Shown here: piece after piece, positions 19,539-36,407 of the stretch
Position numbering within the stretch: the stretch's first letter is position 1
Layout of the letters: the number at the start of each line of letters is the position of its first letter
Sequence record: PX530564.1
Length of the DNA stretch: 58,765 nucleotides
Reading direction: 5' to 3' (one strand)
From: a phage
Made by a program: the position numbers and the translations under genes
The notes under the pieces: generated by a model
The model's database searches: none
What the model was told of the DNA's origin: nothing
The model's input: the letters and a program-made list of their open reading frames with translations, nothing else

Positions 19539-19544
19539 TGAACT

Positions 19545-21788
19545 ATGAGTAAGATTGAATCTGCCCTTCAAGCGGCACAGCCGGGACTCTCTCGGTTACG
19601 TAGTGGCGCTGGTGGTATGGGCTACAGGGCCGCATCTACACAAGCTGAGCAACCTAAGTCCAGCCTACTGGACACCATTGGTCGATTCGCTAAGGCAGGT
19701 GCTGACATGTATGCAGCAAAGGAGCAAAGAGCACGCGACCTTGCTGATGAACGCTCTAACGAGATTATCCGTAAGTTGACCCCTGAGCAACGCCGAGAGG
19801 CCCTCAATAACGGGACCCTTCTGTATCAGGATGACCCATACGCTATGGAAGCACTACGAGTCAAGACTGGTCGCAACGCTGCGTACCTCGTCGATGATGA
19901 TGTTATGCAGAAGGTCAAAGAGGGTGTCTTCCGTACTCGTGAAGAGATGGAACAGTATCGCCATAGTCGTCTTCAAGAGGGCGCGAAGGCATACGCTGAG
20001 CAGTTCGGGATTGACCCTGAGGATGTTGACTATCAGCGTGGTTTCAACGGAGACATTACCGAGCGTAACATTTCGCTGTATGGTGCACACGATAACTTCT
20101 TGAGCCAACAAGCTCAGAAGGGTGCCATCATGAACAGCCGAGTGGAACTCAACGGTGTACTTCAAGACCCTGATATGCTTCGTCGCCCAGACTCCGCTGA
20201 CTTCTTTGAGAAGTACATCGACAATGGTCTGGTTACTGGAGCTATCCCGTCTGACGCTCAGGCTACACAGCTTATTGGTCAAGCGTTCAGTGATGCTTCC
20301 AGCCGTGCTGGTGGTGCTGACTTCCTGATGCGAGTTGGCGACAAGAAGGTAACACTCAACGGAGCCACTACGACTTACCGAGAGTTGATGGGCGAAGAGC
20401 AGTGGAATGCACTTATGGTCACAGCGCAACGGTCTCAGTTTGAGAACGACGCTAAGTTGAACGAGCAGTACCGCTTAAAGATTAACTCTGCGTTGAACCA
20501 AGAAGACCCTCGTACTGCGTGGGAGATGCTTCAAGGTATCAAAGCGGAACTCGATAAGGTGCAACCTGATGAACAGATGACACCCCAACGTCAGTGGTTA
20601 ATCTCGGCACAGGAGCAAGTTCAGAACCAGATGAATGCATGGACGAAAGCTCAGGCCAAGGCTCTGGATGATTCCATGAAGTCGATGAACAAACTTGATG
20701 TAATCGACAAGCAGTTCCAGAAGCGAATCAACGGTGAGTGGGTCTCAACGGACTTCAAGGACATGCCTACCAACGAGAACACTGGGGAGTTCAAGCATAG
20801 CGATATGGTTAACTACGCCAATAAGAAACTAGCTGAGATTGACCGTATGGATATTCCAGATGGCGCTAAGGACGCTATGAAGTTGAAGTACCTTCAAGCT
20901 GACTCTAAGGACGGTGCATTCCGTACAGCTATCGGAACCATGGTAACAGACGCTAGTCAAGAGTGGTCTGCCGCTGTGATTAACGGTAAGCTGCCTAGCA
21001 ATACTCCAGCTATGAACGCTCTACGTAGAATCCGTAATGCTGACCCACAGTTGATTGCTGCATTGTATCCAGACCAAGCCGAGTTATTCTTAACGTTGGA
21101 CATGATGGACAAGCAAGGTATCGACCCTCAGGTTATTCTTGATGCTGACAGACTGAGTGCCAAACGCTCCAAGGAGCAACGCTTCGAAGACGATAAGGCG
21201 TTCGAGTCTGCCCTGAATAGCTCAACCGCACCTGAGATTGCCCGTATGCCAGCGGCGCTTCGTGACTCTGCTCGTAAGATTTATGACTCCGTTAAATACC
21301 GCTCAGGTAACGAGAGCATGGCTATGGAGCAGATGTCAAAGTTCCTTAAGGAATCTACATACACGTTTACCGGAGACGATGTCGATGGTGATACAGTGGG
21401 CGTAATCCCTAAGAACATGATGCAAGTCAACTCGGACCCAAAATCGTGGGAACAAGGTCGTGATATTTTGGAGGAAGCACGTAAGGGAATCATAGCGAAC
21501 AACCCTTGGATTACCAACAAGCAACTTACCATGTATTCTCAAGGTGACTCCATTTACCTTATGGACACAACTGGTCAAGTACGCATCCGGTATGACAAAG
21601 AGTTACTCTCGAAGGTCTGGAGTGAGAACCAGAAGAAACTTGAAGAGAAAGCGCGTGAGAAAGCATTGAAGGATGTCAACAAGCGAGCACCTATCACTGC
21701 TGCTACCAAGGCTCGTGAAGCTGGTGCTAAACGAGTCCGAGAGAAACGTAAACAGACTCCGAAGTTCATCTATGGACGTAAGGAGTAA
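19545..21788 (+). CDS. 15: gene 15 internal core protein C (747 aa)
   Basis: ORF track. Confidence 0.9.
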   Translation: MSKIESALQAAQPGLSRLRSGAGGMGYRAASTQAEQPKSSLLDTIGRFAKAGADMYAAKEQRARDLADERSNEIIRKLTPEQRREALNNGTLLYQDDPYAMEALRVKTGRNAAYLVDDDVMQKVKEGVFRTREEMEQYRHSRLQEGAKAYAEQFGIDPEDVDYQRGFNGDITERNISLYGAHDNFLSQQAQKGAIMNSRVELNGVLQDPDMLRRPDSADFFEKYIDNGLVTGAIPSDAQATQLIGQAFSDASSRAGGADFLMRVGDKKVTLNGATTTYRELMGEEQWNALMVTAQRSQFENDAKLNEQYRLKINSALNQEDPRTAWEMLQGIKAELDKVQPDEQMTPQRQWLISAQEQVQNQMNAWTKAQAKALDDSMKSMNKLDVIDKQFQKRINGEWVSTDFKDMPTNENTGEFKHSDMVNYANKKLAEIDRMDIPDGAKDAMKLKYLQADSKDGAFRTAIGTMVTDASQEWSAAVINGKLPSNTPAMNALRRIRNADPQLIAALYPDQAELFLTLDMMDKQGIDPQVILDADRLSAKRSKEQRFEDDKAFESALNSSTAPEIARMPAALRDSARKIYDSVKYRSGNESMAMEQMSKFLKESTYTFTGDDVDGDTVGVIPKNMMQVNSDPKSWEQGRDILEEARKGIIANNPWITNKQLTMYSQGDSIYLMDTTGQVRIRYDKELLSKVWSENQKKLEEKAREKALKDVNKRAPITAATKAREAGAKRVREKRKQTPKFIYGRKE

Positions 21789-21814
21789 CTAAAGGCTACA
21801 TAAGGAGGCCCTAA

Positions 21815-24800
21815 ATGGATAAGTACGATAAGAACGTACCAAGTGATTATGATGGTCTGTTCCAAAAGGCGGCTGATGCCAACGGGGTCTCTTATGACCT
21901 TTTACGTAAAGTCGCTTGGACAGAATCACGATTCCAACCAACAGCTAAATCTAAGACTGGACCCTTAGGTATGATGCAGTTCACCAAGGCAACCGCCAAG
22001 GCAATGGGATTGCGCGTTACCGATGGTCCAGACGATGACCGACTGAACCCTGAGTTGGCTATCAACGCTGCCGCTAAGCACCTTGCAGGTCTGGTTGGTA
22101 AGTTTGATGGCGATGAACTTAAAGCTGCCCTTGCGTATAACCAAGGTGAGGGACGCTTGGGTAATCCACAACTTGAGGCATACTCTAAGGGTGACTTCTC
22201 GGCTATCTCCGAGGAGGGACGAAACTACCTACGTAATCTTCTGGATGTTGCCAAGTCTCCTATGGCTGGACAGTTGGAAGCATTCGGTGGTATCACCCCA
22301 AAGGGTAAAGGCATTCCGGCTGAGGTAGGACTTGCTGGTATTGGACATAAGCAGAAGGTTACACAGGACCTTCCTGAGTCCACAAGTTTCGACGTTAAGG
22401 GTATCGAACAGGAGGCTCCGGCGAAACCATTCGCCAAGGACTTTTGGGAGACCCACGGAGAAACGCTTGACGAGCACAACAACCGTTCAACCTTCTTCGG
22501 ATTCAAAGACGCTGCCGAAGCTGAACTCTCCAACTCAGTCGCTGGGATGGCTTTCCGTGCTGGTCGTCTTGATAACGGTTTTGACGTGTTTAAAGACACC
22601 ATTACGCCGACTCGCTGGAACTCTCACATCTGGACTCCAGAAGAGTTAGAGAAGATTCGAACCGAGGTTAAGAACCCTGCGTACATCAACGTGGTGACTG
22701 GTGGTTCTCCTGAGAATCTTGATGACCTCATTAAGTTAGCCAACGAGAACTTTGAGGCTGACTCACGCGCTGCTGAGGCTGGTCTGGGTGCTAAGCTGAG
22801 TGCTGGTGTTATTGGTGCTGGCGTAGACCCACTGAGCTATGTTCCGATGGTTGGTGTCACAGGTAAAGGCTTTAAGCTAATCAATAAGGCACTCGTTGTT
22901 GGCGCTGAGAGTGCAGCACTTAACGTTGCTTCCGAGGGACTTCGAACCTCAGTCGCTGGAGGTGACTCCGACTATGCTGGTGCTGCCTTAGGTGGCTTTG
23001 TGTTCGGTGCTGGTATGTCTGCAATCAGTGACGCTATCGCTGCTGGACTCAAACGTGGTAAACCAGAAGCCGAGTTCGACAATGAGTTCATTGGCCCTAT
23101 GATGCGAATGGAAGCCCGTGAGACAGCGCGTAACGCTAACTCTACTGACCTTTCTCGGATGAACACAGAAAACATGAAGTTTGAAGGTGAGCACAACGGT
23201 GTGCCCTATGAAGACCTTCCTGCTGAGAAGGGTGCTGTGGTACTCCATGACGGTTCTGTGATTAGCGCAAGTAACCCAATCAACCCTAAGACACTCAAAG
23301 AGTTCTCTGAGGTTGACCCTGAGAAGGCTGCGTGGGGCGTTAAACTGGCAGGGTTCACTGAGATTGGCTTGAAGACCTTAGGGTCTGACGATGCCAATAT
23401 TCGCAGGATAGCGATTGACCTTGTTCGTTCTCCTACTGGGATGCAATCGGGTGCCTCAGGTAAGTTTGGAGCTACTGCATCTGACATCCACGAGAGACTC
23501 CACAGTACCGACCAGAGAACCTACAACGACCTGTACAAAGCAATGTCAGACGCTATGAAAGACCCTGAGTTCTCTACAGGTGGCTCTAAGATGTCACGAG
23601 AAGAGGCTCGTTACACTATCTACCGTAGAGCGGCATTGGCTATTGAGCGTCCAGAACTACAGAAGGTTCTCACTCCGTCTGAGCGTATAGTAATGGACAT
23701 CATTAAGCGCCACTTTGACACTAAGCGTGAACTCATGGAGAATCCAGCAATCTTCGGTAATACGAAGGCTGTAAGCATCTTCCCTGAGAGTCGCCATAAA
23801 GGAACCTACGTCCCGCACGTTTACGACCGTCACGCCAAGGCTCTGATGATTCAACGGTACGGTGCCGAAGGGTTACAGGAAGGTATTGCCCGTTCTTGGT
23901 TGAACAGCTATGCCTCCCGCCCTGAGGTCAAAGCGCGTGTTGATGAGATGCTCAAGGAAGTTCATGGGGTAAAGGAAGTTACGCCGGAGATGGTTGAGAA
24001 GTACGCTATGGACAAGGCATACGGTATCTCTCATTCAGACCAGTTCACTAACAGTTCTGTGATTGAAGAGAACATTGAGGGCCTAGTAGGTATTGAGAAC
24101 AACTCGTTCCTTGAAGCTCGTAACTTGTTTGACTCTGACTTATCTATCACGATGCCTGATGGACAACAGTTTGCCGTGAATGACCTAAGGGACTTCGACA
24201 TGTTCCGCATCATGCCTGCATATGACCGCCGTATCAATGGAGACATTGCTATCATGGGGTCTACCGGTAAAACCACTCAGGAACTTAAGGACGAGATTCT
24301 AGCACTCAAAGCAAGTGCTGAGGGTAACGGTAAGAAGACTGGCGAGGTTCATGCTCTTATGGATACCGTTAAGATTCTCACCGGACGTGCTCGACGTAAT
24401 CACGACACAGTTTGGGAAACCTCGCTGCGTTCTATCAATGACTTAGGGTTCTTCGCTAAGAACGCCTATATGGGTGCTCAGAACCTTACTGAGATTGCTG
24501 GGATGATTGCTACTGGTAACGTCCGTGCTCTCGGTCACGGTATTCCGATTCTTCGTGATACTCTCTATAAGTCTAAACCAGTTTCCGCTAAGGAACTCAA
24601 GGAACTCCATGCGTCTCTGTTCGGGAAGGAAGTGGACCAGTTGATTCGACCTAAACGTGCTGACATTGTTCAGCGATTAAGGGAGGCAACTGATACAGGA
24701 CCGATGGTTGCGAACATCGTAGGGACCTTGAAGTATTCCACACAGGAATTGGCTGCTCGTTCTCCGTGGACGAAGATGCTTAATGGGACCACTAACTATC

Positions 24801-25771
24801 TTCTTGATGCTGCCCGTCAAGGTATGCTTGGGGATGTGATTAGTGCCACCCTATCTGGTAAGACTACTCGCTGGGAGAAGGAAGGATTCCTCCGTGGTGC
24901 ATCGGTAACGCCTGAACAGATGAAAGGAATCAAGGCGCTCATCAAGGAACACATGGTTCGCGGTGAGGATGGTAAGTACACTGTCAAGGATAAGCAAGCG
25001 TTCTCTATGGACCCTAGGGCTATGGACCTGTGGCGACTGGCTGATAAGGTTGCAGATGAGGCTATGCTACGTCCACATAAGGTGTCCTTACAGGATTCCC
25101 ATGCTTTTGGTGCGCTTGGTAAGATGGTAATGCAGTTCAAATCGTTTACCATCAAGTCGCTGAACTCTAAGTTCATCAAGCTCTTCTATGATGGCTACAA
25201 GAATAGCCGTGCGGTTGATGCTGCCTTGACAGGTATCATCTCCATGGGGCTTGCTGGTGGCTACTATGCGATGGCTGCACACGTCAAAGCATATGGAATG
25301 CCTAAGGAGAAACGTAAGGAGTACTTAGAGCGAGCACTGGACCCAACCATGATTGCTCACGCTTCCTTGTCTCGTAGTTCTCAATTGGGTGCACCTTTAG
25401 CTATGGCTGACCTTATTGGTGGTGCGTTCGGTGTAGAATCTTCTAAGATGGCTCGTTCCACGATTCTACCTAAGGATACCATGAAGAAACGAGACCCTAA
25501 CAAGCCTTACACCTCGTGGGAGGTAATGGGTGCTATGGGTTCAAACCTTCTGGAGCAGATGCCTTCGGCTGGCTTTGTGGCTAACGTTGGTGCTACCCTA
25601 CTGAACACTGCTGGTGTGGTTAATGCTCCCAACAAGGCTACCGAGCAGGACTTCATGACTGGCTTGATGAACTCTACAAAAGAGTTAGTTCCTAACGACC
25701 CTTTGACTCAACAGCTTGTGTTGAAGATTTATGAGGCCAATGGTGTCAATTTGAAGGAGCGTCGGAAATAA
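21815..25771 (+). CDS. 16: gene 16 internal core protein D with N-terminal lytic transglycosylase domain (1318 aa)
   Basis: ORF track; N-terminal ..ESRFQPTAKSKTGPLGMMQFT.. SLT-like motif. Confidence 0.92.
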   Translation: MDKYDKNVPSDYDGLFQKAADANGVSYDLLRKVAWTESRFQPTAKSKTGPLGMMQFTKATAKAMGLRVTDGPDDDRLNPELAINAAAKHLAGLVGKFDGDELKAALAYNQGEGRLGNPQLEAYSKGDFSAISEEGRNYLRNLLDVAKSPMAGQLEAFGGITPKGKGIPAEVGLAGIGHKQKVTQDLPESTSFDVKGIEQEAPAKPFAKDFWETHGETLDEHNNRSTFFGFKDAAEAELSNSVAGMAFRAGRLDNGFDVFKDTITPTRWNSHIWTPEELEKIRTEVKNPAYINVVTGGSPENLDDLIKLANENFEADSRAAEAGLGAKLSAGVIGAGVDPLSYVPMVGVTGKGFKLINKALVVGAESAALNVASEGLRTSVAGGDSDYAGAALGGFVFGAGMSAISDAIAAGLKRGKPEAEFDNEFIGPMMRMEARETARNANSTDLSRMNTENMKFEGEHNGVPYEDLPAEKGAVVLHDGSVISASNPINPKTLKEFSEVDPEKAAWGVKLAGFTEIGLKTLGSDDANIRRIAIDLVRSPTGMQSGASGKFGATASDIHERLHSTDQRTYNDLYKAMSDAMKDPEFSTGGSKMSREEARYTIYRRAALAIERPELQKVLTPSERIVMDIIKRHFDTKRELMENPAIFGNTKAVSIFPESRHKGTYVPHVYDRHAKALMIQRYGAEGLQEGIARSWLNSYASRPEVKARVDEMLKEVHGVKEVTPEMVEKYAMDKAYGISHSDQFTNSSVIEENIEGLVGIENNSFLEARNLFDSDLSITMPDGQQFAVNDLRDFDMFRIMPAYDRRINGDIAIMGSTGKTTQELKDEILALKASAEGNGKKTGEVHALMDTVKILTGRARRNHDTVWETSLRSINDLGFFAKNAYMGAQNLTEIAGMIATGNVRALGHGIPILRDTLYKSKPVSAKELKELHASLFGKEVDQLIRPKRADIVQRLREATDTGPMVANIVGTLKYSTQELAARSPWTKMLNGTTNYLLDAARQGMLGDVISATLSGKTTRWEKEGFLRGASVTPEQMKGIKALIKEHMVRGEDGKYTVKDKQAFSMDPRAMDLWRLADKVADEAMLRPHKVSLQDSHAFGALGKMVMQFKSFTIKSLNSKFIKLFYDGYKNSRAVDAALTGIISMGLAGGYYAMAAHVKAYGMPKEKRKEYLERALDPTMIAHASLSRSSQLGAPLAMADLIGGAFGVESSKMARSTILPKDTMKKRDPNKPYTSWEVMGAMGSNLLEQMPSAGFVANVGATLLNTAGVVNAPNKATEQDFMTGLMNSTKELVPNDPLTQQLVLKIYEANGVNLKERRK

Positions 25772-25791
25772 TACGACTCACTATAGGGAGA
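25769..25791 (+). promoter_or_regulatory. T7 RNAP class III promoter phi17-like
   Basis: TAATACGACTCACTATAGGGAGA overlapping gene 16 stop. Confidence 0.9.
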
Positions 25792-25841
25792 GGAGAAGGT
25801 CTTCTCCCTGTAGTATTCTAGATTTACTTTAAGGAGGTCAA

Positions 25842-27518
25842 ATGGCTAACGTAATTAAGACCGTTTTGACTTACCCGCTGGATGGCTCTACGCGTGATTT
25901 TAATATTCCGTTTGAGTATCTAGCCCGTAAGTTCGTAGTGGTAACTCTTATTGGCGTAGACCGTAAGGTCCTTACGATTAATACAGACTATCGCTTTGCT
26001 ACACGCACTACCATCTCTCTGACCAAGGCTTGGGGTACAGCCGATGGTTATACGACCATTGAGTTGCGTCGAGTAACCTCCACTACAGACCGCTTGGTTG
26101 ACTTTACGGATGGCTCAATCCTCCGTGCTTATGACCTTAACGTGGCCCAGATTCAGACGATGCATGTAGCGGAAGAGGCCCGTGACCTAACTGCGGATAC
26201 CATTGGTGTCAATAATGATGGTCACTTGGACGCCCGTGGTCGCCGTATCGTGAACCTAGCGAACGCCGTGGATGACCGTGACGCTGTTCCGTTTGGTCAA
26301 CTTAAGACCATGAACCAGAACTCGTGGCAAGCGCGTAATGAAGCCTTACAGTTCCGCAATGAGGCTGAGACTTTCCGTAACCAAGCGGAGGGCTTTAAGA
26401 ACGAGTCCAGCACTAACGCTTCGAATACCAATCAGTGGCGTAATGAGGCTAAGGGGTTCCGAGATGAGGCCGAACAGTTTAAGAACACTGCGACACAACA
26501 GGCTACCGCTGCTAGTGGCTCTGCGACGGCTGCTCACCAATCTGAGGTGAACGCTGCGAACTCTGCAAAAGAATCTGCTAACTCTGCTACTTTGGCAGAA
26601 CAACAAGCAGACCGTGCGGAACGTGAAGCTGACAAGCTGGGTAACTGGAATGCACTTGCAGGTGCCGTTGATAAAGTAGTGGGCGTAGATGTGTACTTTA
26701 AAGGGGTTCTCTTTTGCCGTCAAGGAGTACAGGTATTATCCTCTACCGTTCAAGGGGACCTATATCGCTCCGGTCTTTGGAGAGATACTGCTGGCAACCT
26801 TTTCTACGACTATGTACTTGAGCGTGGAACAGGTACAGGACGTGCGTTTTCAACTTTAGTCTATGAAGCTAGTGGGAATAATTACACCAAGTTTGACAGC
26901 AGAACATACCATGTAAGGGACATCCAGACTGGCTGGAGCGGAGCCAGGTCTTACGCAGACCAGTGGAATGAGAGTGCCCCATTGTGGGGTACGGTTCCAG
27001 ATGGTGCCCGTAACGAGTACTTTCCTCTTATTAAACAGCGTTCCTATCAATCCGGAATAGACGCCAAAGCATGGCATCAAGGTATTCTAGTGCAAGGTGA
27101 CGGTAAGAACGTGTGGAACATCGTGTTTACAGATGAGGGCGGTAACGTTAGAGTGTGGACATTCGACGGAGATGGTAGCTTTTGGTCTCCTATGGATATC
27201 AATGCCTCGCGGCAGGTGATCTCTGGCTCTTTCAGAACACATGGTGGCGGTACGCTCAACGGTGAAGGTCGTGTATACGGCTCTGCATACGATGGTGGCT
27301 ACCTTGACGACTGGGTTCGAAGACATTTCATAGGGGATGTCTACCTAGGACCTCACGTGTGGAACCAGTACGGTGGAGGCTATCACGACATTATAGCGCC
27401 ATCTGGACATGTCCAAACAGGCACAACCGTTAATAATGGGGGTGTTGCTGGTATCTTTGTAAGACCAGTATGGCTTGGTTTCCATAACGGCACAAAAAGA
27501 ATCATTGCGTCACAGTAA
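25842..27518 (+). CDS. 17: gene 17 tail fibre (558 aa): conserved N-terminal module plus a C-terminal receptor-binding module unlike T7 and unlike block E
   Basis: ORF track; N-terminus MANVIKTVLTYPLDGSTRDFNIPFEYLARKF..; diverges from the block-E fibre after ..FKG (about aa 285). Confidence 0.9.
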   Translation: MANVIKTVLTYPLDGSTRDFNIPFEYLARKFVVVTLIGVDRKVLTINTDYRFATRTTISLTKAWGTADGYTTIELRRVTSTTDRLVDFTDGSILRAYDLNVAQIQTMHVAEEARDLTADTIGVNNDGHLDARGRRIVNLANAVDDRDAVPFGQLKTMNQNSWQARNEALQFRNEAETFRNQAEGFKNESSTNASNTNQWRNEAKGFRDEAEQFKNTATQQATAASGSATAAHQSEVNAANSAKESANSATLAEQQADRAEREADKLGNWNALAGAVDKVVGVDVYFKGVLFCRQGVQVLSSTVQGDLYRSGLWRDTAGNLFYDYVLERGTGTGRAFSTLVYEASGNNYTKFDSRTYHVRDIQTGWSGARSYADQWNESAPLWGTVPDGARNEYFPLIKQRSYQSGIDAKAWHQGILVQGDGKNVWNIVFTDEGGNVRVWTFDGDGSFWSPMDINASRQVISGSFRTHGGGTLNGEGRVYGSAYDGGYLDDWVRRHFIGDVYLGPHVWNQYGGGYHDIIAPSGHVQTGTTVNNGGVAGIFVRPVWLGFHNGTKRIIASQ

Positions 27519-27527
27519 GGAGGGACA

Positions 27528-27905
27528 ATGAGAGTATTTACTAACTGGAAGTGGACCGAAGGGTTTTACTTTGGAAAACCAATCTATGAGATTCGTGACC
27601 ACAATAACGTTGATTGGTATACCTTGATGGACGAACTAGATGAGCGCCAAGAAACATGGGTGGTAGGTATTGGACCTAACGGCGACGTTATGTGGTTTAC
27701 TGATGGACCAGTGTCTGGACTGTATGTACCTGTAGAGGGAGGGACTGTTGTTGTAACTGATTCTTTTGAGTTCTCGACTAACTGGAGAGGGTGCACATGG
27801 GATGGAAAGACGTTCCATGCACCAGAAGAAGTCCAGAAGCGAACTAAGGAGGACATTGAGCAGGACTTGCTGAAACTAATGGCTGAGTTGAAGGGTCTGG
27901 AATAA
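27528..27905 (+). CDS. hypothetical protein (125 aa) downstream of tail fibre; candidate tail-fibre assembly chaperone or cargo gene
   Basis: ORF track; AAGGAGGG RBS 7 nt upstream of ATG; Trp- and acidic-rich; absent at the equivalent position in block E. Confidence 0.5.
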   Translation: MRVFTNWKWTEGFYFGKPIYEIRDHNNVDWYTLMDELDERQETWVVGIGPNGDVMWFTDGPVSGLYVPVEGGTVVVTDSFEFSTNWRGCTWDGKTFHAPEEVQKRTKEDIEQDLLKLMAELKGLE

Positions 27906-27925
27906 TTATACCAAGGAAAGACGTG

Positions 27926-27943
27926 TAGTCCACGGATGGACTA
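27926..27943 (+). promoter_or_regulatory. conserved stem-loop upstream of holin gene 17.5
   Basis: Perfect 7-bp inverted repeat TAGTCCA-CGGA-TGGACTA; related hairpins at 55223..55236 and 58075..58088. Confidence 0.35.
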
Positions 27944-27961
27944 TTTGAGGGAGGACGCTAC

Positions 27962-28009
27962 ATGTTGTCTTTAGATTTTAACAACGAGTTAGTCAAGGCT
28001 ACCTAAAGT
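27962..28009 (+). pseudogene. 17.5: 5' fragment of gene 17.5 (holin), 13 codons, truncated at junction with terminal-repeat sequence
   Basis: ATG 27962, MLSLDFNNELVKA matches the start of the intact holin at 55254, then runs into repeat sequence and stops at TAA 28007-28009. Confidence 0.6.
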
Positions 28010-28167
28010 TCCCCCATAGGGGTACCTAAAGCCCAGCCAATCACCTAAAGTCAACCTTCGGTTGACCTTGAGGGTTCCCTAGGGTTGGGATGACCCTTTG
28101 GTTTACCTTTGAGTGTCTCCTTGTCCCTATCTGTTCAGTCTCCTAAAGTCACCTCCTAAAGTCCATC
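28001..28167 (+). repeat. terminal-repeat-homologous sequence, entered about 15 bp inside the repeat
   Basis: CCTAAAGTTCCCCCATAGGGGTACCTAAAGCCCAGCC.. matches the T7-type terminal repeat; the same repeat type begins TCTCACAGTGTACGG at 58687. Confidence 0.65.
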
Positions 28168-28300
28168 ATCAAGCCAACGCCTAAAGAATACCCTTAAAGA
28201 CCCATCAAGTCAATCCCTATCTTAAAGATATTCTAAAGACCATACCTAAAGACCATACCTAAAGATGCCTTGTTGTTACCTATAAAGAGATTATCTTTAA
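28168..28300 (+). repeat. left-end array of short CCTAAAG / CTTAAAG direct repeats
   Basis: More than 8 copies of the heptamer at irregular spacing, as in T7 left-end short repeats. Confidence 0.5.
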
Positions 28301-28310
28301 CCATTGTCTT

Positions 28311-28333
28311 TAATACAACTCACTATAAGGAGA
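28311..28333 (+). promoter_or_regulatory. T7 RNAP promoter phiOL-like
   Basis: TAATACAACTCACTATAAGGAGA near the genome left end. Confidence 0.7.
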
Positions 28334-28383
28334 CTACTTAAAGGCCTTAAAGAGATTAATCAAAATAATTTAAAAAAGAGTAT

Positions 28384-28412
28384 TGACTTAAGGAGTCCTA
28401 GGGGTTACTATT
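28384..28412 (+). promoter_or_regulatory. sigma70-type early promoter A1-like
   Basis: AAAAAGAGTATTGACTTAAGG.. with -35 TTGACT and -10-like TACTAT at 17-bp spacing. Confidence 0.6.
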
Positions 28413-28509
28413 CATCTCGTCAACGGGACAACGGCCTAAAAGCCACTCCCTGAGATACCGGGGTCAACCGGATAAGTAGACAGCCTGTAAGTCGCACGAA
28501 AAACAGGCA

Positions 28510-28538
28510 TTGACAACACGCAGTAACATGCAGTAAGA
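28510..28538 (+). promoter_or_regulatory. sigma70-type early promoter A2-like
   Basis: TTGACAACACGCAGTAACATGCAGTAAGATAC. Confidence 0.6.
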
Positions 28539-28616
28539 TACACAGCGTCAACACGGTAGCACGGTGTCTTCTAGGTGACTTAAGCGCACCACGGCACATA
28601 AGGTGAAACAAAACGG

Positions 28617-28645
28617 TTGACAACATGCAGTAAACACGGTACGAT
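28617..28645 (+). promoter_or_regulatory. sigma70-type early promoter A3-like
   Basis: TTGACAACATGCAGTAAACACGGTACGATGTACC. Confidence 0.6.
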
Positions 28646-28763
28646 GTACCACAAGCAGTAAGGGTGTAGGGATAGGAACCGAGAAACCTGCCCGCGACCC
28701 GCCACGGATAAGGCACTAGCTATGAGTCGAATTCGGTCACTCATCGCATAAAAGAATAACAGG

Positions 28764-28792
28764 TTGACAGCCTCCTTTAAAAGCTGTAAGAT
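28764..28792 (+). promoter_or_regulatory. additional sigma70-like promoter inside a 137-bp block shared with 40531..40667
   Basis: TTGACAGCCTCCTTTAAAAGCTGTAAGATGTACC (-35 TTGACA, -10 TAAGAT). Confidence 0.45.
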
Positions 28793-29070
28793 GTACCACA
28801 GAAAGACACCGAGTGTCGTAGGTGTAAAAACGCGACATAGTGGATAGATGCCGAAAGCACAAGCGACCACGATAATAAAGAGCTTGTCGGAAATGTAACG
28901 CAAGTGACGGCTAACACTGAAACAGCCTCGGCTCGACGAAACTGTAGCTTAAAGTTCTTTAACAATTTGGTAAATAGCTCTTGGGTGCACGAATAGCGGA
29001 TAACTCAAGGGTATCGCAAGGTGCCCTTTATGATATCCACTAACATTCACATACAATGAGGTAACACAAG

Positions 29071-29421
29071 ATGGCTATGTCTAACATGACTTATAACAAC
29101 GTTTTCGACCACGCTTACGAAATGCTGAAAGAAAACATCCGTTATGATGACATCCGTGACACTGATGACCTGCACGATGCAGTACACATGGCAGCCGATA
29201 GCGCCGTTCCGCACTATTACAGCGACATTTTCAGCGTAATGGCAAGCGAGGGCATTGACCTTGAGTTCGAAGACTCTGGTCTGATGCCGGACACCAAGGA
29301 CGTAATCCGTATCCTGCAAGCACGTATCTATGAGCAACTCACAATCGACCTTTGGGAAGACGCTGAGGACTTACTGAACGAGTATCTTGAGGAAGTCGAA
29401 GCAGAAGAGGATGAAGAGTAA
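29071..29421 (+). CDS. ocr: gene 0.3 Ocr, DNA-mimic anti-restriction protein (116 aa)
   Basis: ORF track; [36 protein letters not shown].. with acidic C-terminus. Confidence 0.93.
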
Positions 29422-29576
29422 TGGCCAACAACACCACGCAATATGGTCTGACCGCTCAAACTGTACTGTTTTATAGTGACATGGTGCGCTGTGGATTTGA
29501 TTGGTCGCTCGCAATGGAACACCTTAAGGAACTGTATGAAAACAACAAGGCAATAGCCTTGGAGTCTGCTGAGTGA
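29421..29576 (+). CDS. 0.4: gene 0.4 protein (51 aa)
   Basis: ATG 29421 overlapping ocr stop, TGA 29574-29576. Confidence 0.65.
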   Translation: MANNTTQYGLTAQTVLFYSDMVRCGFDWSLAMEHLKELYENNKAIALESAE

Positions 29577-29625
29577 TAAACTCAAGGTCGCTCCTAGCGA
29601 GTGGCCTTTCATGATTATCACTTTA
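29577..29625 (+). promoter_or_regulatory. RNase III processing hairpin (R0.5-like)
   Basis: AACTCAAGGTCGCTCCTAGCGAGTGGCCTTTCATGATTATCAC. Confidence 0.4.
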
Positions 29626-29643
29626 CTTACGGGAGTAATGTAT

Positions 29644-29769
29644 ATGCTTACTATCGGTCTACTCACCGCTCTGGGTCTAGCTGTAGGCGCATCCTTTGGG
29701 AAGTCTTTGGGCGTAGCTGTAGGCTCTTACTTGGTCGCTTGTATCATCACGGGAGCACTGCGCAAATGA
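29644..29769 (+). CDS. 0.5: gene 0.5 small membrane protein (41 aa)
   Basis: ATG 29644, MLTIGLLTALGLAVGASFGKSLGVAVGSYLVACIITGALRK. Confidence 0.6.
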   Translation: MLTIGLLTALGLAVGASFGKSLGVAVGSYLVACIITGALRK

Positions 29770-29906
29770 TGAAACATTACGTTATGCCTATCCACACCAA
29801 GAACGGTGCTACAGTTTGCACACCTGATGGCTTCGCAATGAAACAACGCATTGAGCGCCTTAAGCGCGAACTGCGCATCAACCGCAAGCGTCTTCAACTA
29901 GGCTGA
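29766..29906 (+). CDS. 0.6: gene 0.6-like protein (46 aa)
   Basis: ATG 29766 overlapping 0.5 stop; MMKHYVMPIHTKNGATVCTPDGFAMKQRIERLKRELRINRKRLQLG. Confidence 0.55.
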   Translation: MMKHYVMPIHTKNGATVCTPDGFAMKQRIERLKRELRINRKRLQLG

Positions 29907-29931
29907 AATTCTTGTAACTAAAGGCAACTGT

Positions 29932-30386
29932 ATGCTTAATTGCTCCAAAACGTGTATAGCATGTGGTGAGATGAAACCACTGAATATGTACTCGAAAAAT
30001 GCAGCATCGCGAGATGGTCACATCGGTACGTGTAAGAAATGCAAGGCAAAGCAACAAAGGGAACGAAGAGCCAAGGCAAAGGCTTCTGGTGCGCCAACTG
30101 AGAAGGCAATCAAGGATGCCAAGCGTAGACGAAACAATCACCTGAAAATTAGTTACGGTATCGACGAATCAGTGTACAAAAAGATGTACGAAGAACAACA
30201 CGGCGTCTGCGCCATATGTAAACAACCTGAAAGCATTGAGGGTAGGCGACTATGTGTTGACCATTCGCACATGACAGGAGACGTAAGGGTCTTCTGTGCT
30301 CAAACTGCAACAGAGGAATAGGCCTTCTTAAAGACTCACCTGAACTATTACGCAACGCTTTCTATTATTTAACTGGTAAACTCTAA
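29932..30386 (+). pseudogene. Endonuclease VII-type (His-Cys box) homing-endonuclease-like gene with apparent 1-nt frameshift
   Basis: ORF 29932..30321 carries CAICKQP..LCVDHSHMTGDVR; the motif continues in the +1 frame (GLLCSNCNRGIGLLKDSPELLRNAFYYL) to TAA 30384-30386; break is in the G-run at 30287-30289. Confidence 0.7.
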
Positions 30387-30399
30387 AGGACACACTGTA

Positions 30400-31479
30400 A
30401 TGAACATTACCGACATCATGAACGCTATCGACGCAATCAAAGCACTGCCAATCTGTGAACTTGATAAGCGTCAAAGTATGCTCATTGATTTGCTGGTCGA
30501 GATGGTCAACAACGAAACGTGTGACGGTGAAATCACCAAGCTGGACAAGCCGCTTGAATATCAGGACTGGTGGACTACCTTAAGGTGCCTGACTACTGAC
30601 GCTGGCTTCACGATGCTCGGTAATGGTCACTTCTCCGCTGCATATAGTCACCCACTGCTGCCTAACAGAGTGATTAAGGTGGGCTTTAAGAAAGAGGATT
30701 CAGGCGCTGCGTATATCGCATTCTGCCGCATGTATCAGGGTCGCGCTGGTATCCCTAACGTCTACGATGTTCAACGCCATGCAGGCTGCTATACGGTGGT
30801 TCTTGATGCCCTGAATGAATGTGAGCGAGACGATAACTATGAGCACGACAAATACGCTGAGATTGCAAGCGACATCATTGACTGCAACTCTGATATGCAC
30901 GATTGGCGTGGCGGATGGGTTGGGGAGTTCGTCGAAACTTGCAAACTAATCCGCAAGTTCTTTGAGGGCATCGCTTCGTTCGACATGCACAGCGGGAACA
31001 TCATGTTCGACGATAATGACGTACCGTACATTACCGACCCTGTGTCATTCTCACAGAAGAAAGATGGTGGCGTGTTCAGCATGGACCCTGAGGAACTCAT
31101 CAAGGAAGTCGAGGAAGTCGCACGACAGAAAGAAATTGACCGCGCCAAGGAACGTAAAGAACGCCATGAGGGACGATTACAAGCGCGTAGAGTCAAACGC
31201 ATTAATCGCAAGGCACGTAAGGCACACCGCGCTAAGCGTGAAAGGATGCTTGCTGCGTGGCGCATGGCTGAGCGTCACGAACGGCGTAACCATGAGGTAG
31301 CTGTAGATGTGCTAGGAAGAACCAATAACGCTATGCTCTGGGCGCACATGTTCGCTGGGGACTTTAAGGCGCTTGAGGAACGAATCGCAGCGCACTGGTT
31401 CCAAGCTGACCGCATGGCTATAGCTAATGGTCTTCCACTAAACATTGATAAGAAACTTGACGCAATGCTAATGGGATGA
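30400..31479 (+). CDS. 0.7: gene 0.7 protein kinase / host transcription shut-off protein (359 aa)
   Basis: ORF track; [25 protein letters not shown].. full length as T7 gp0.7. Confidence 0.9.
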
Positions 31480-31549
31480 TAGTCTTATCTTACAGGTCAT
31501 CTGCGGGTGGCCTGAAATAGATACGATTACTGACCGAAAGAGGTACAAA

Positions 31550-34201
31550 ATGAGCACGATTAACATCGCTAAGAACGATTTCTCTGACATCGAACTGGCT
31601 GCTATCCCGTTCAACACTCTGGCTGACCACTATGGTGAGCGTCTAGCTCGCGAACAGTTGGCCCTTGAGCATGAGTCTTACGAGATGGGCGAGGCACGTT
31701 TCCGCAAGATGTTTGAGCGTCAACTCAAGGCCGGTGAGGTTGCAGACAATGCGGCTGCTAAGCCACTGATTACTACTCTACTGCCCAAGATGGTTACACG
31801 CATCAACGACTGGTTTGAGGAAGTGAAAGCTAAGCGTGGCAAACGTCCAACCGCTTTCCAGTTCCTGCAAGGAATCAAGCCGGAAGCCGTAGCGTATATC
31901 ACCATTAAGACTACTCTTGCTTGCCTAACGAGCGTAGACAATACAACCGTTCAGGCTGTAGCAAGCGCCATCGGACGGGCTATCGAGGAAGAGGCTCGCT
32001 TCGGTCGAATCCGTGACCTAGAAGCTAAGCACTTCAAGAAAAACGTTGAGGAACAACTAAACAAGCGCGTAGGGCACGTCTATAAGAAAGCATTCATGCA
32101 AGTAGTAGAGGCCGATATGCTCTCTAAGGGTCTACTCGGTGGCGAGGCGTGGTCTACATGGCACAAGGAAGATTCCATTCACGTAGGTGTGCGCTGCATT
32201 GAGATGCTCATTGAGTCCACCGGAATGGTTAGCTTGCACCGCCAAAATGCTGGCGTAGTGGGCCAAGACTCTGAGACTATCGAGCTGGCACACGAATACG
32301 CTGAGGCTATCGCAACACGGGCTGGGGCACTGGCGGGTATCTCTCCGATGTATCAGCCTTGCATAGTACCGCCTAAACCTTGGACCGGTGTAACTGGTGG
32401 TGGATACTGGGCCAACGGTCGCCGTCCACTGGTACTGGTGCGTACCCACAGCAAGAAGGCACTGATGCGCTACGAAGATGTTTACATGCCTGAGGTATAC
32501 AAGGCGATCAACATTGCGCAAAACACCGCTTGGAAAATCAACAAGAAAGTCCTAGCGGTCGCCAACGTAATCACCAAGTGGAAGCACTGCCCGGTCGAGG
32601 ACATCCCAGCGATTGAACGTGAAGAACTCCCGATGAAACCGGAAGACATCGACACGAATCCTGAGGCTCTCACTGCATGGAAACGTGCCGCTGCCGCTGT
32701 GTACCGTAAAGACAAGGCTCGCAAGTCTCGCCGCATAAGCCTTGAGTTCATGCTTGAGCAAGCCAATAAGTTCGCTAACCATAAGGCCATCTGGTTCCCT
32801 TACAACATGGACTGGCGCGGTCGTGTTTACGCTGTGTCAATGTTCAACCCGCAAGGTAACGACATGACCAAGGGACTGCTGACACTGGCTAAGGGTAAAC
32901 CAATCGGTAAAGAAGGTTACTACTGGCTGAAAATCCACGGTGCAAACTGTGCGGGTGTCGATAAGGTTCCGTTCCCTGAGCGCATCAAGTTCATTGAGGA
33001 CAACCACGAGAACATCATGGCTTGCGCTAAGTCTCCTCTGGAGAACACTTGGTGGGCTGAGCAAGATTCTCCGTTCTGCTTCCTTGCGTTCTGCTTTGAG
33101 TACGCTGGGGTACAACACCACGGCCTTAGCTACAACTGCTCTCTTCCGCTGGCGTTCGATGGGTCTTGCTCTGGTATTCAGCACTTCTCCGCGATGCTCC
33201 TTGATGAGATAGGTGGTCGTGCGGTTAACCTGCTGCCTAGTGAAACCGTTCAGGACATCTACGGGATTGTCGCTAAGAAAGTCAACGTGATTCTGCAAGA
33301 AGACGTAATCAACGGGACCGACAACGAAGTAGTTACCGTGACTGATGAGAACACTGGCGAAATCTCTGAGAAAGTTAAGCTGGGCACCAAGGCATTGGCT
33401 GGTCAGTGGTTGGCTTACGGTGTTACTCGCAGCGTGACTAAGCGTTCAGTCATGACGCTGGCTTACGGGTCCAAAGAGTTCGGCTTCCGTCAACAAGTGC
33501 TGGAAGATACCATTCAGCCAGCTATTGATTCCGGTAAAGGTCTGATGTTCACTCAACCGAATCAGGCCGCTGGATACATGGCGAAACTGATTTGGGAAGC
33601 TGTGAGCGTCACGGTGGTAGCTGCGGTTGAAGCAATGAACTGGCTTAAGTCTGCCGCTAAGCTGCTGGCTGCTGAGGTCAAAGATAAGAAGACTGGAGAG
33701 ATTCTTCGCAAGCGTTGCGCTGTGCATTGGGTAACTCCTGATGGGTTCCCAGTGTGGCAGGAATACAAGAAGCCAATTCAGACTCGCTTGAACCTGATGT
33801 TCCTCGGTCAGTTCCGCTTACAGCCGACCATTAACACCAACAAAGACAGCGAGATTGATGCACACAAACAGGAGTCCGGTATTGCTCCTAACTTTGTACA
33901 CAGCCAAGATGGTAGCCACCTGCGTAAGACTGTAGTGTGGGCGCATGAGAAGTACGGAATCGAATCATTTGCGTTGATTCACGACTCCTTCGGGACCATT
34001 CCGGCTGACGCTGCCAACCTGTTCAAAGCTGTTCGCGAAACTATGGTTGACACCTATGAGTCTTGCGATGTACTGGCTGACTTCTATGAGCAGTTCGCTG
34101 ACCAGTTACATGAGTCTCAATTGGATAAAATGCCAGCACTTCCGGCTAAAGGTAACTTGAATCTCCAAGACATCCTTAAGTCAGACTTCGCGTTCGCGTA
34201 A
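31550..34201 (+). CDS. 1: gene 1 single-subunit DNA-dependent RNA polymerase (883 aa)
   Basis: ORF track; near-identical to T7 RNAP (MSTINIAKNDFSDIELAAIPFNTLADHYGERLAREQ.. ..DFAFA). Confidence 0.98.
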   Translation: MSTINIAKNDFSDIELAAIPFNTLADHYGERLAREQLALEHESYEMGEARFRKMFERQLKAGEVADNAAAKPLITTLLPKMVTRINDWFEEVKAKRGKRPTAFQFLQGIKPEAVAYITIKTTLACLTSVDNTTVQAVASAIGRAIEEEARFGRIRDLEAKHFKKNVEEQLNKRVGHVYKKAFMQVVEADMLSKGLLGGEAWSTWHKEDSIHVGVRCIEMLIESTGMVSLHRQNAGVVGQDSETIELAHEYAEAIATRAGALAGISPMYQPCIVPPKPWTGVTGGGYWANGRRPLVLVRTHSKKALMRYEDVYMPEVYKAINIAQNTAWKINKKVLAVANVITKWKHCPVEDIPAIEREELPMKPEDIDTNPEALTAWKRAAAAVYRKDKARKSRRISLEFMLEQANKFANHKAIWFPYNMDWRGRVYAVSMFNPQGNDMTKGLLTLAKGKPIGKEGYYWLKIHGANCAGVDKVPFPERIKFIEDNHENIMACAKSPLENTWWAEQDSPFCFLAFCFEYAGVQHHGLSYNCSLPLAFDGSCSGIQHFSAMLLDEIGGRAVNLLPSETVQDIYGIVAKKVNVILQEDVINGTDNEVVTVTDENTGEISEKVKLGTKALAGQWLAYGVTRSVTKRSVMTLAYGSKEFGFRQQVLEDTIQPAIDSGKGLMFTQPNQAAGYMAKLIWEAVSVTVVAAVEAMNWLKSAAKLLAAEVKDKKTGEILRKRCAVHWVTPDGFPVWQEYKKPIQTRLNLMFLGQFRLQPTINTNKDSEIDAHKQESGIAPNFVHSQDGSHLRKTVVWAHEKYGIESFALIHDSFGTIPADAANLFKAVRETMVDTYESCDVLADFYEQFADQLHESQLDKMPALPAKGNLNLQDILKSDFAFA

Positions 34202-34209
34202 CGTCAAAT

Positions 34210-34232
34210 TAATACGACTCACTATAGAGGGG
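34210..34232 (+). promoter_or_regulatory. T7 RNAP promoter phi1.1A-like
   Basis: TAATACGACTCACTATAGAGGGA immediately after gene 1. Confidence 0.85.
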
Positions 34233-34233
34233 A

Positions 34234-34275
34234 CAAACTCAAGGTCATTCGCAAGAGTGGCCTTTATGATTGACC
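34234..34275 (+). promoter_or_regulatory. RNase III processing hairpin (R1.1-like)
   Basis: CAAACTCAAGGTCATTCGCAAGAGTGGCCTTTATGATTGACC. Confidence 0.45.
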
Positions 34276-34298
34276 TTCTTCCGGTTAATACGACTCAC
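34276..34298 (+). promoter_or_regulatory. T7 RNAP promoter phi1.1B-like
   Basis: TAATACGACTCACTATAGGAGAA. Confidence 0.85.
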
Positions 34299-34386
34299 TA
34301 TAGGAGAACCTTAAGGTTTAACTTTAAGACCCTTAAGTGTTAATTAAAGATTTAAATTAAAGAATTACTAAGAGAGGACTTTAAGT
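34299..34386 (+). other. AT-rich tract downstream of phi1.1A/B; candidate primary origin of replication
   Basis: About 75% A+T (..TTTAACTTTAAGACCCTTAAGTGTTAATTAAAGATTTAAATTAAAGAATTAC..) at the position of the T7 primary origin. Confidence 0.4.
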
Positions 34387-34515
34387 ATGCGTAACTTCGA
34401 AAAGATGACCAAACGTTCTACCCGTAATGCTCATGACTTCGAGGCAACTAAAGGTCGCAAGTTGAATAAGACTAAGCGTGACCGTTCCCATAAGCGTAGC
34501 TGGGAGGGTCAGTAA
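34387..34515 (+). CDS. 1.1: gene 1.1 basic protein (42 aa)
   Basis: ATG 34387, MRNFEKMTKRSTRNAHDFEATKGRKLNKTKRDRSHKRSWEGQ. Confidence 0.7.
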   Translation: MRNFEKMTKRSTRNAHDFEATKGRKLNKTKRDRSHKRSWEGQ

Positions 34516-34516
34516 G

Positions 34517-34774
34517 ATGGGACGTTTATACAGTGGGAACTTGAATGACTTCAAGGATGCTTGCAACAGGCTCTACCAGTTAGACTTTGCTGTTATTTGT
34601 GATGAATGGCATGATGCTTACAAACGCCTTGCGTGTATACGTCTACGCGTAGAGGACAGGGCTGGAAATCTGATTGATACCAATACGTTCTGTCACCACG
34701 ATGAAGACGTCTTGTACAATACGTGTACTGACTGGCTGAACCGTATGTACGACCAGTTGAAGGACTGGAAGTAA
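34517..34774 (+). CDS. 1.2: gene 1.2 protein (85 aa; dGTPase inhibitor in T7)
   Basis: ATG 34517 inside ORF 34478..34774; MGRLYSGNLNDFKDACNRLYQLDFAVICDEWHDAYKR.. Confidence 0.85.
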   Translation: MGRLYSGNLNDFKDACNRLYQLDFAVICDEWHDAYKRLACIRLRVEDRAGNLIDTNTFCHHDEDVLYNTCTDWLNRMYDQLKDWK

Positions 34775-34794
34775 TACGACTCAGTATAGGGACA
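34772..34794 (+). promoter_or_regulatory. T7 RNAP promoter phi1.3-like
   Basis: TAATACGACTCAGTATAGGGACA overlapping 1.2 stop. Confidence 0.75.
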
Positions 34795-34830
34795 ATGCTT
34801 AAGGTCGCTCATTGAGTGGCCTTAGTCATT
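34795..34830 (+). promoter_or_regulatory. RNase III processing hairpin (R1.3-like)
   Basis: AATGCTTAAGGTCGCTCATTGAGTGGCCTTAGTCATT. Confidence 0.4.
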
Positions 34831-34852
34831 TAACCAATAGGAGATAAACATT

Positions 34853-35878: not shown

Positions 35879-36278
35879 GTATAACCCTGCGGCTCCTTCG
35901 GGAGTCATTTCTGCCTCTGGTAAACCCATAGGGTACAAGCGGAAAGATGGGTATTGGGTTCTTTCTTATGGAGGAAAGCAGTTACTTGCACACAGGGTGG
36001 TCTGGATGCTTAACTTCGGTGCAATACCCGATGGAATGGTGATAGACCACATTAACAGAAACCCTAGCGACAACCGCATAGAGAATCTTCGAGTAGTAAC
36101 TCAATCAGCTAACCTAAGGAATGTAGGCGTCCGGTCTCACTGTAGGAGTGGAGAGAAGTTTATCTCCCTTGATGTGAGAACCGGACGTTTTTCCGTTCGT
36201 ATCAGGAGAAAATCCTATGGAACATATGGTACTCTCGAAGAGGCTATAGCTGTGCGCGATGCTAATACGACTCACTAA
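35808..36278 (+). CDS. HNH homing-endonuclease-like protein (about 156 aa) between ligase and gene 1.5
   Basis: ATG 35808 with GGAGGA RBS, inside ORF 35721..36278; motif ..GMVIDHINRNPSDNRIENLRVVTQSAN..; overlaps ligase 3' end by 71 nt; stop is the TAA of the phi1.5 promoter. Confidence 0.7.
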   Translation: MAHCVTRPSPASEELRTIRKRKYKYNPAAPSGVISASGKPIGYKRKDGYWVLSYGGKQLLAHRVVWMLNFGAIPDGMVIDHINRNPSDNRIENLRVVTQSANLRNVGVRSHCRSGEKFISLDVRTGRFSVRIRRKSYGTYGTLEEAIAVRDANTTH

Positions 36279-36285
36279 AGGAGGT
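36263..36285 (+). promoter_or_regulatory. T7 RNAP promoter phi1.5-like (block B copy)
   Basis: TAATACGACTCACTAAAGGAGGT. Confidence 0.85.
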
Positions 36286-36292
36286 ACACATC

Positions 36293-36382
36293 ATGATGTA
36301 CTTAATGCCATTACTCATTGTCATCATAGGATGCCTTGCGCTCCACTGTAGCGATGACGATATGCCAGATGGTCATGCTTAA
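36293..36382 (+). CDS. 1.5: gene 1.5 small membrane protein (29 aa), block B copy
   Basis: ATG 36293, MMYLMPLLIVIIGCLALHCSDDDMPDGHA, TAA 36380-36382. Confidence 0.65.
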   Translation: MMYLMPLLIVIIGCLALHCSDDDMPDGHA

Positions 36383-36402
36383 TACGACTCACTAAAGGAG
36401 AC
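36380..36402 (+). promoter_or_regulatory. T7 RNAP promoter phi1.6-like (block B copy)
   Basis: TAATACGACTCACTAAAGGAGAC. Confidence 0.85.
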
Positions 36403-36407
36403 ACTAT

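What the first reader, a model, noticed from the sequence alone, without database searches (positions are those of the whole stretch)
27906..28010. Holin gene start fused to an internal point of the terminal repeat
After the 125-aa ORF, a conserved hairpin and the first 13 codons of gene 17.5 (MLSLDFNNELVKA), the sequence switches at about 28000 into terminal-repeat sequence starting about 15 bp inside the repeat (CCTAAAGTTCCCCC..). A true concatemer junction would be right end, full repeat, left end; here genes 18 to 19.5 of block A are missing. There is only weak microhomology at the join (AAGGCT / ACGGAC before CCTAAAG).
Basis: seen in the sequence. Interest (0 to 1): 0.5.

Follow-up and report, generated by a model that had tools for sequence, protein, structure and literature searches.

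The report
Seam between two pasted phage records
The "holin fused to the terminal repeat" is the point where one T7-like phage sequence stops and base 1 of a different GenBank phage record has been pasted on, so it is a data artefact and not a biological junction.

Summary
At 28000/28001 the sequence jumps from codon 13 of a T7-type holin gene (17.5) to position 16 of a T7-type terminal repeat.

It is not a junction in any genome. Window 28001-40530 is string-identical to bases 1-12530 of GenBank PQ010280.1 (Escherichia phage vB_EcoM_CQ615). That record happens to start 15 nt inside the repeat.

The rest of the window is built the same way:
- 40531-42770 = phage C5 (MH717099.1) 701-2940.
- 42771-48720 = C5 12321-18270.
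- 48721-58765 = phage 64795_ec1 (KU927499.1) 29191 to its last base, 39235.

All pieces are exact. Every interior cut falls on a 10-nt grid of record coordinates. Block A is exactly 28000 nt long. The joins share 0-1 nt.

The closest natural relatives of block A's end are metagenome contigs that are 99.2% identical over the last ~600 nt. They continue past the breakpoint into the full 67-aa holin and genes 18, 18.5 and 19. The junction string is absent from every collection searched.

Verdict: an in-silico concatenation seam, not a real feature. Interest is very low.

The parts
1..28000 (+). Block A: one continuous 28000-nt stretch of a T7-like (Teseptimavirus) genome. It runs from the gene 1.x region to codon 13 of gene 17.5, with all major genes intact. 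Its source record was not found.
   Evidence: Best match is 94.9% to Serratia phage Pila 7662-35283. ORFs for gp4, 5, 6, 8-17 are full length. No identical sequence in phages, plasmids, E. coli genomes, viral, metagenome or genome contigs.
27528..27905 (+). 125-aa ORF between tail fibre gene 17 and holin gene 17.5, ending in TAA at 27903-27905.
   Evidence: No Pfam hit. Weak PHROG hit to tail fiber assembly protein phrog_136, E = 3.4e-5. Homologues are annotated as hypothetical in Pila, CQ615 and C5.
27906..27961 (+). Intergenic spacer holding a small hairpin (27926-27943) and the holin ribosome-binding site GAGGGAGG (27947-27954).
   Evidence: The fold is not better than shuffles.
27962..28000 (+). 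First 13 codons of holin gene 17.5 (MLSLDFNNELVKA), cut off by the end of block A. Read across the seam, the frame stops after one more codon (MLSLDFNNELVKAT*).
28000..28001 (.). Seam 1: last base of block A | base 1 of GenBank PQ010280.1. No shared bases.
28001..40530 (+). Exact copy of PQ010280.1 (Escherichia phage vB_EcoM_CQ615) bases 1-12530. The first 127 nt are the record's terminal overlap, which corresponds to terminal-repeat positions 16-142.
   Evidence: 12530/12530 identical. 28001-28127 also equals record 39583-39709. The record's right-hand copy is preceded by TCTCACAATGTACGG.
40531..42770 (+). Exact copy of MH717099.1 (Escherichia phage C5) 701-2940. Seam 2 lies at 40530/40531.
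42771..48720 (+). Exact copy of MH717099.1 (phage C5) 12321-18270. Seam 3 lies at 42770/42771.
48721..58765 (+). Exact copy of KU927499.1 (Escherichia phage 64795_ec1) 29191-39235, which is the last base of the record. Seam 4 lies at 48720/48721. Contains the intact holin (55254-55457) and 79 nt of the right terminal repeat (58687-58765).

Best explanation
The join at 28000/28001 is a seam made by computer. The window is not one molecule. It is at least five pieces of at least four different T7-like phage sequences laid end to end without spacers.

The left piece (block A) stops at a round 28000 nt, which happens to be codon 13 of its holin gene. The right piece is the start of GenBank record PQ010280.1. 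That record was deposited with its first 15 terminal-repeat bases missing, which is why the sequence appears to enter the repeat 15 nt in.

Nothing 'works' here. The truncated holin (14 codons, then a stop) and the missing genes 18-19.5 are consequences of where the pieces were cut.

Shown: the identity and coordinates of four of the five pieces, and the continuation of block A relatives past the cut. Inferred: that a fragmenting or redundancy-reducing step with a 10-nt stride produced the pieces. I could not reconstruct the rule itself.
For: (1) Window 28001-40530 equals PQ010280.1 1-12530 with 0 mismatches and starts at base 1 of the record.

(2) The other pieces are also exact substrings of records: C5 701-2940, C5 12321-18270, and 64795_ec1 29191-39235, the record end, which is also the window end.

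(3) All six interior cut coordinates sit on a 10-nt grid (starts end in 1, ends end in 0), and block A is exactly 28000 nt. The chance of this is about 1e-5 to 1e-6, allowing for a 1-nt ambiguity at one join.

(4) The source phages come from different places: sewage in Shandong, swine faeces in China, and Italy.

(5) The joins share 0-1 nt between the parents and connect non-homologous positions, for example gene 6.7 to gene 15.

(6) The closest natural relatives of block A's end are L003 and L006, 99.2% identical over window 27394-28000. Their alignments stop exactly at 28000, and the contigs continue into a full 67-aa holin, gp18, gp18.5 and gp19.

(7) The junction 38-mer is absent from viral, genome and metagenome contigs. 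No phage record spans it; 0 records cover 80% or more of 27400-28600.
Against: The source record of block A was not found in any collection. I therefore cannot show directly that the very same sequence continues past 28000.

I also could not derive the rule that chose the pieces. A simple 'drop what resembles earlier pieces' filter does not reproduce them.
Confidence: 0.97

Rival explanations
1. Assembly chimera. A sample holding several T7-like phages was assembled, and the assembler jumped between strains, producing a mis-joined contig.
For: All pieces are closely related Teseptimaviruses, 85-95% identical to one another. Such mixtures and terminal repeats do cause mis-joins.
Against: Graph assemblers join through shared k-mers, but these joins share 0-1 nt and link non-homologous positions. 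The cuts fall on a 10-nt grid of GenBank coordinates and at record termini. The pieces are 100.000% identical to isolates from different countries. The junction is in no public contig collection.
Confidence: 0.02
2. A real aberrant DNA molecule. Illegitimate recombination, mis-processing of a concatemer or a defective genome joined the holin start of one phage to the repeat of a co-infecting phage.
For: T7-like phages replicate through concatemers and recombine actively, and deletion mutants arising at short repeats are known (my own knowledge, not tested here).
Against: There is no microhomology in register. The break coincides with the arbitrary first base of a database record rather than with a genome end. 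That record itself lacks 15 nt of its own repeat. Three further seams of the same kind would require four independent events, all on a 10-nt grid. The product lacks genes 18-19 for block A and genes 8-15 for the second part, so it could not propagate.
Confidence: 0.005
3. A deliberately engineered or synthetic chimeric phage construct assembled from parts of several phages.
For: Modular T7-family chimeras have been built in the laboratory (my own knowledge).
Against: The cuts fall inside genes (holin codon 13, gene 4, kinase 0.7, gene 6.7, gene 15) and make truncated or nonsense fusion ORFs. Replication genes are duplicated while packaging and head genes are missing in parts. No such record is in the phage collection.
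Confidence: 0.005

Closest known systems
Unmarked record or fragment boundary in a concatenated sequence set (in-silico chimera)
   Same: Abrupt switch with no shared bases. One side begins at base 1 of a database record and the window ends at the last base of another. Cut points are round numbers in record coordinates. There are several such seams in one window.
   Different: Nothing differs, except that the source of the first piece and the rule that chose the pieces remain unidentified.
T7 concatemer junction (right end, one copy of the ~160-bp terminal repeat, left end)
   Same: Late-gene DNA is followed by terminal-repeat and early-region DNA on the same strand.
   Different: The left side stops in gene 17.5 instead of running through genes 18-19.5 to the right end. 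The repeat is entered at position 16, not position 1. The two sides belong to different phages, about 91% identical where they are comparable.
T7 deletion or illegitimate-recombination junctions at short direct repeats
   Same: A join between two distant, non-homologous points of a T7-type genome.
   Different: Such junctions use a short shared repeat. Here 0 nt are shared in register, and the coordinates follow a database grid.
GenBank phage records with assembler-overlap ends (PQ010280.1)
   Same: This explains the '15 nt inside the repeat' detail. The record's two ends are an identical 127-nt overlap that starts at repeat position 16.
   Different: That is a property of the deposited record, not of the window's join.

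Membership tests
T7-type concatemer junction | The left flank is the genome's right end (through genes 19/19.5 to the last unique base) | tested here: not met
   The left flank ends at codon 13 of gene 17.5. Relatives carry about 3.4 kb more (the rest of the holin, gp18, gp18.5, gp19) before the repeat.
T7-type concatemer junction | One complete terminal repeat, starting at TCTCACAG..., lies between the right and left unique sequences | tested here: not met
   The repeat starts at its position 16 (ACCTAAAG...). The first 15 nt are absent.
T7-type concatemer junction | Both flanks belong to the same genome | tested here: not met
   The right flank is 100% CQ615. The left flank is only about 90-93% identical to CQ615 and 95% to Pila.
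Illegitimate (microhomology-mediated) recombination junction | A short stretch of identical bases is shared by both parents at the crossover | tested here: not met
   0 nt are shared in register at 28000/28001, and 0-1 nt at the other seams.
De Bruijn-graph assembly chimera | The join passes through a k-mer (at least ~21 nt) common to both parents | tested here: not met
   No shared sequence at any of the four joins. The joined positions are not homologous.
In-silico concatenation of database fragments | The flanks are exact substrings of independent database records | tested here: met
   Four of the five pieces are string-identical to PQ010280.1, MH717099.1 (twice) and KU927499.1. The fifth (block A) has no identical record in the collections searched.
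In-silico concatenation of database fragments | Breakpoints coincide with record termini or follow a regular coordinate grid | tested here: met
   The cuts are at record base 1, at the last base (39235), and at 12530, 701, 2940, 12321, 18270 and 29191. Block A is 28000 nt long.
In-silico concatenation of database fragments | The junction is absent from primary data or other public sequences | tested here: met
   The junction 38-mer has 0 hits in viral, genome and metagenome contigs, and no phage record spans it. Raw reads cannot be tested with these tools.
T7 class II holin (gp17.5, Pfam PF10746) | A full ~67-aa protein matching the family profile | tested here: not met
   At 27962 only 13 codons are present and the frame stops at codon 15. 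The intact copies (window 55254-55457; L003 569-772) match PF10746 at E about 1e-35.

The most novel reading that the evidence does not exclude
The most novel reading not strictly excluded is that block A's source really is a molecule in which a truncated holin gene was joined to the repeat of a co-infecting T7-like phage, that is, a defective inter-phage recombinant. Under that reading, the coincidence with base 1 of PQ010280.1 and with the 10-nt grid would be accidental. A more modest novelty is that block A comes from a Teseptimavirus with no identical public record (about 95% identical to Serratia phage Pila), so it may be an undescribed strain or borderline species.
Probability: 0.01. Interest if true: 0.3.

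Novelty: not a real feature. Interest (0 to 1): 0.03.

Why it matters
It matters only for data hygiene. This window is a patchwork, so any feature that spans 28000/28001, 40530/40531, 42770/42771 or 48720/48721 is an artefact and should not be interpreted biologically. That covers fusion ORFs, apparent 'duplications' of early and replication genes, and 'missing' genes 8-15 or 18-19.5. Other first-stage findings from this window that compare 'block A' with 'block B' are really comparing different phages.

Tried and rejected
(1) I looked for the source of block A and found no identical sequence.
- BLAST of 1-8000, 3001-28000 and 26001-28000 against phages, plasmids and E. coli genomes.
- Exact 48- to 54-mers ending at 28000 in viral, metagenome and genome contigs.
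- Exact-protein look-ups for gp17 and gp16, which returned nothing.
- Exact-protein look-up for the capsid protein, which returned only relatives 93-96% identical.

(2) I tested whether the pieces are what is left after removing parts similar to earlier pieces, that is, a redundancy filter. The dropped parts of CQ615, C5 and 64795_ec1 are no more similar to earlier window content (85-96%) than the kept parts are. The selection rule stays unknown.

(3) I considered the hairpin before the holin as a functional element. It is a 7-bp stem whose fold energy is not distinguishable from shuffles, and there is no covariation to test, because the relatives are near-identical or simply different there. 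I did not pursue it.

(4) I considered microhomology at the join. There is none in register.

(5) I considered hidden seams inside block A. All large genes are intact, and alignment breaks against Pila and CQ615 fall in known variable intergenic regions or in the fibre tip. Block A looks like one continuous piece.

Full report
**1. The observation**

- A 125-aa ORF lies at 27528-27905.
- A 56-nt spacer follows. It holds a small hairpin (stem 27926-27932 with 27937-27943) and a GAGGGAGG ribosome-binding site.
- An ATG at 27962 is followed by 13 codons, MLSLDFNNELVKA.
- These are the first 13 residues of the T7-family class II holin. The intact copy at 55254-55457 and the copy in a close relative both read MLSLDFNNELVKAAPIVGTG... 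and match Pfam PF10746 at E about 1e-35.
- After base 28000 the frame runs into ...T-stop, and the DNA becomes ACCTAAAGTTCCCCCATAGGGGTACCTAAAGCCC. This is T7-type terminal-repeat sequence.
- Records that begin at the true genome end (Pila, C5, phiA1122, T7, Yanou) align to it from their position 16. The window's own right-end repeat at 58687 shows the 15 missing bases, TCTCACAGTGTACGG.

So the description, the coordinates and the '15 bp inside the repeat' detail are all correct.

**2. What the join is**

A BLAST search of 27400-28600 against 50,697 phage records found no record spanning the join. The right half matched PQ010280.1 (Escherichia phage vB_EcoM_CQ615) at 100%, starting at record position 1.

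Local comparison showed that window 28001-40530 equals record bases 1-12530 with 0 mismatches and 0 gaps, after which the two diverge completely.

Searching the remainder gave the same picture (string comparison):

| Window | Source record | Record coordinates |
|---|---|---|
| 28001-40530 | PQ010280.1 (CQ615) | 1-12530 |
| 40531-42770 | MH717099.1 (phage C5) | 701-2940 |
| 42771-48720 | MH717099.1 (phage C5) | 12321-18270 |
| 48721-58765 | KU927499.1 (phage 64795_ec1) | 29191-39235 (last base of the record, also the last base of the window) |

- All four pieces are string-identical to their records.
- The six interior cut coordinates all lie on a 10-nt grid: starts end in 1, ends end in 0.
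- The first piece, block A, is exactly 28000 nt long.
- By chance the grid fit would occur about once in 1e5 to 1e6, allowing for a 1-nt placement ambiguity at one join.
- Two further block ends are record termini.
- The joins share 0-1 nt between the parents and connect non-homologous positions, for example C5 gene 6.7 to 64795_ec1 gene 15.
- The source phages were isolated from sewage in Shandong, from swine faeces in China, and in Italy.

Only a computational cut-and-paste explains all of this together.

**3. Why the repeat starts 15 nt in**

PQ010280.1 carries an identical 127-nt stretch at both ends, 1-127 and 39583-39709. The right-hand copy is preceded by TCTCACAATGTACGG. The deposited record therefore lacks the first 15 nt of its own terminal repeat at the left end. 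The 127-nt identical ends look like an assembler overlap; that is my inference. The 'internal point of the repeat' is thus a property of the GenBank record, not of a recombination event.

**4. What block A would look like beyond the seam**

Block A (1-28000) is a continuous stretch of a T7-like genome with intact genes 4 to 17. Its best match is 94.9% to Serratia phage Pila 7662-35283. I found no identical source anywhere.

An exact-protein look-up of the 125-aa ORF found five metagenome contigs. Two of them, L003 (ENA ERZ28620594 scaffold_12004) and L006 (Logan ERR2241770), are 99.2% identical to window 27394-28000 and 27405-28000 respectively (607 nt and 596 nt). Their alignments to the window stop exactly at 28000. 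The contigs themselves continue GCACCCATTGTTGGC..., which is the rest of a 67-aa holin. In L003, genes 18, 18.5 and 19 follow. Pila and CQ615 behave the same way at the homologous point.

**5. Rivals**

- **Assembly chimera.** This needs shared k-mers at the joins and would not respect GenBank coordinates. Rejected.
- **Real illegitimate recombinant or aberrant concatemer.** This needs microhomology and a viable or at least plausible molecule. Here there is no microhomology in register, and there are four seams of the same kind. The product has two sets of replication genes, no genes 18-19 after block A, and no genes 8-15 in the second part.
- **Engineered construct.** This would not cut inside the holin, gene 4, the 0.7 kinase, gene 6.7 and gene 15.
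- **Public occurrence.** The junction 38-mer has no exact match in viral, genome or metagenome contigs.

**6. Comparison with known things**

The join superficially resembles a T7 concatemer junction: late genes, then the repeat, then early genes. It fails all three defining features I could test.
- The left flank is not the genome's right end.
- The repeat is incomplete.
- The two flanks come from different phages.

It meets the features of an unmarked fragment boundary in a concatenated sequence set.

**7. Verdict**

The biological reading is not. This is not a real feature, and interest is about 0.03.

The practical lesson is that this window has four seams, at 28000/28001, 40530/40531, 42770/42771 and 48720/48721. 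Anything that spans them or compares the 'blocks' should be re-read in that light.

What remains unknown is the source record of bases 1-28000 and the rule that picked the fragments. A simple redundancy filter does not reproduce them.

Noticed in passing
window 40530/40531, 42770/42771, 48720/48721: Three further artificial seams of the same kind. They create false ORFs. 39080-40537 is CQ615 gene 4 cut to 485 aa. 41929-42987 is the start of the C5 0.7 kinase running into C5 gene 4 tail sequence. 48566-48826 is the start of C5 gene 6.7 running into 64795_ec1 gene 15 sequence. They also create the apparent second copy of the early region at 40531-42770.
   Followed up: yes
window 1-28000: Block A has no identical sequence in any collection searched. 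Its best match is about 95% to Serratia phage Pila, with relatives 93-96% identical in ENA and Logan metagenome contigs. It may be an undescribed Teseptimavirus strain or borderline species, or a record newer than the collections.
   Followed up: partly
window 27528-27905: The 125-aa ORF between tail fibre gene 17 and the holin has no Pfam match. It has a weak PHROG match to 'tail fiber assembly protein' (phrog_136, E = 3.4e-5). It is conserved at this position in Pila, CQ615, C5 and N30, where it is annotated as hypothetical. No separate ORF of this kind lies between the fibre gene and the holin in 64795_ec1.
   Followed up: partly
window 53333-55205: In the 64795_ec1 piece the tail fibre is read as two overlapping ORFs (53333-54205 and 54141-55205; annotated as two 'tail fibers protein' CDS in the record). 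Its distal half has no megablast match (>=200 nt) to block A's fibre or to the CQ615 and Pila records. This could be a frameshift or a genuinely split fibre gene.
   Followed up: no
L001 (PQ010280.1) 1-127 and 39583-39709: The CQ615 record has identical 127-nt ends and lacks the first 15 nt of its terminal repeat at the left end, which looks like an assembler-overlap artefact left in the deposit. The phage is named vB_EcoM (myovirus) although it is filed under Autographiviridae, genus Teseptimavirus.
   Followed up: partly
L012 (KU927499.1) 1-60 and window 58687-58765: The 64795_ec1 record starts well inside the left-end region (ACAAAAGCCTATTCCTAAAG...), with no terminal-repeat start. It ends only 79 nt into the right terminal repeat, so its ends are not the physical genome ends.
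   Followed up: no
window 73-114, 3212-3253, 5050-5091, 10129-10170, 14098-14139, 18474-18515, 25766-25807, 34283-34324, 39007-39048, 48248-48289, 53255-53296: Eleven copies of the T7-type phage RNA polymerase promoter (TAATACGACTCACTATAGGGAGA and variants) lie at the expected positions before late and middle genes. This is ordinary for the genus.
   Followed up: no
window 42991-43449: An ORF in the C5 piece is annotated as a putative HNH endonuclease, located between gene 4 and gene 4.3. Block A and CQ615 show little or no match at this position. This is typical mobile homing-endonuclease variation in T7-like phages.
   Followed up: no
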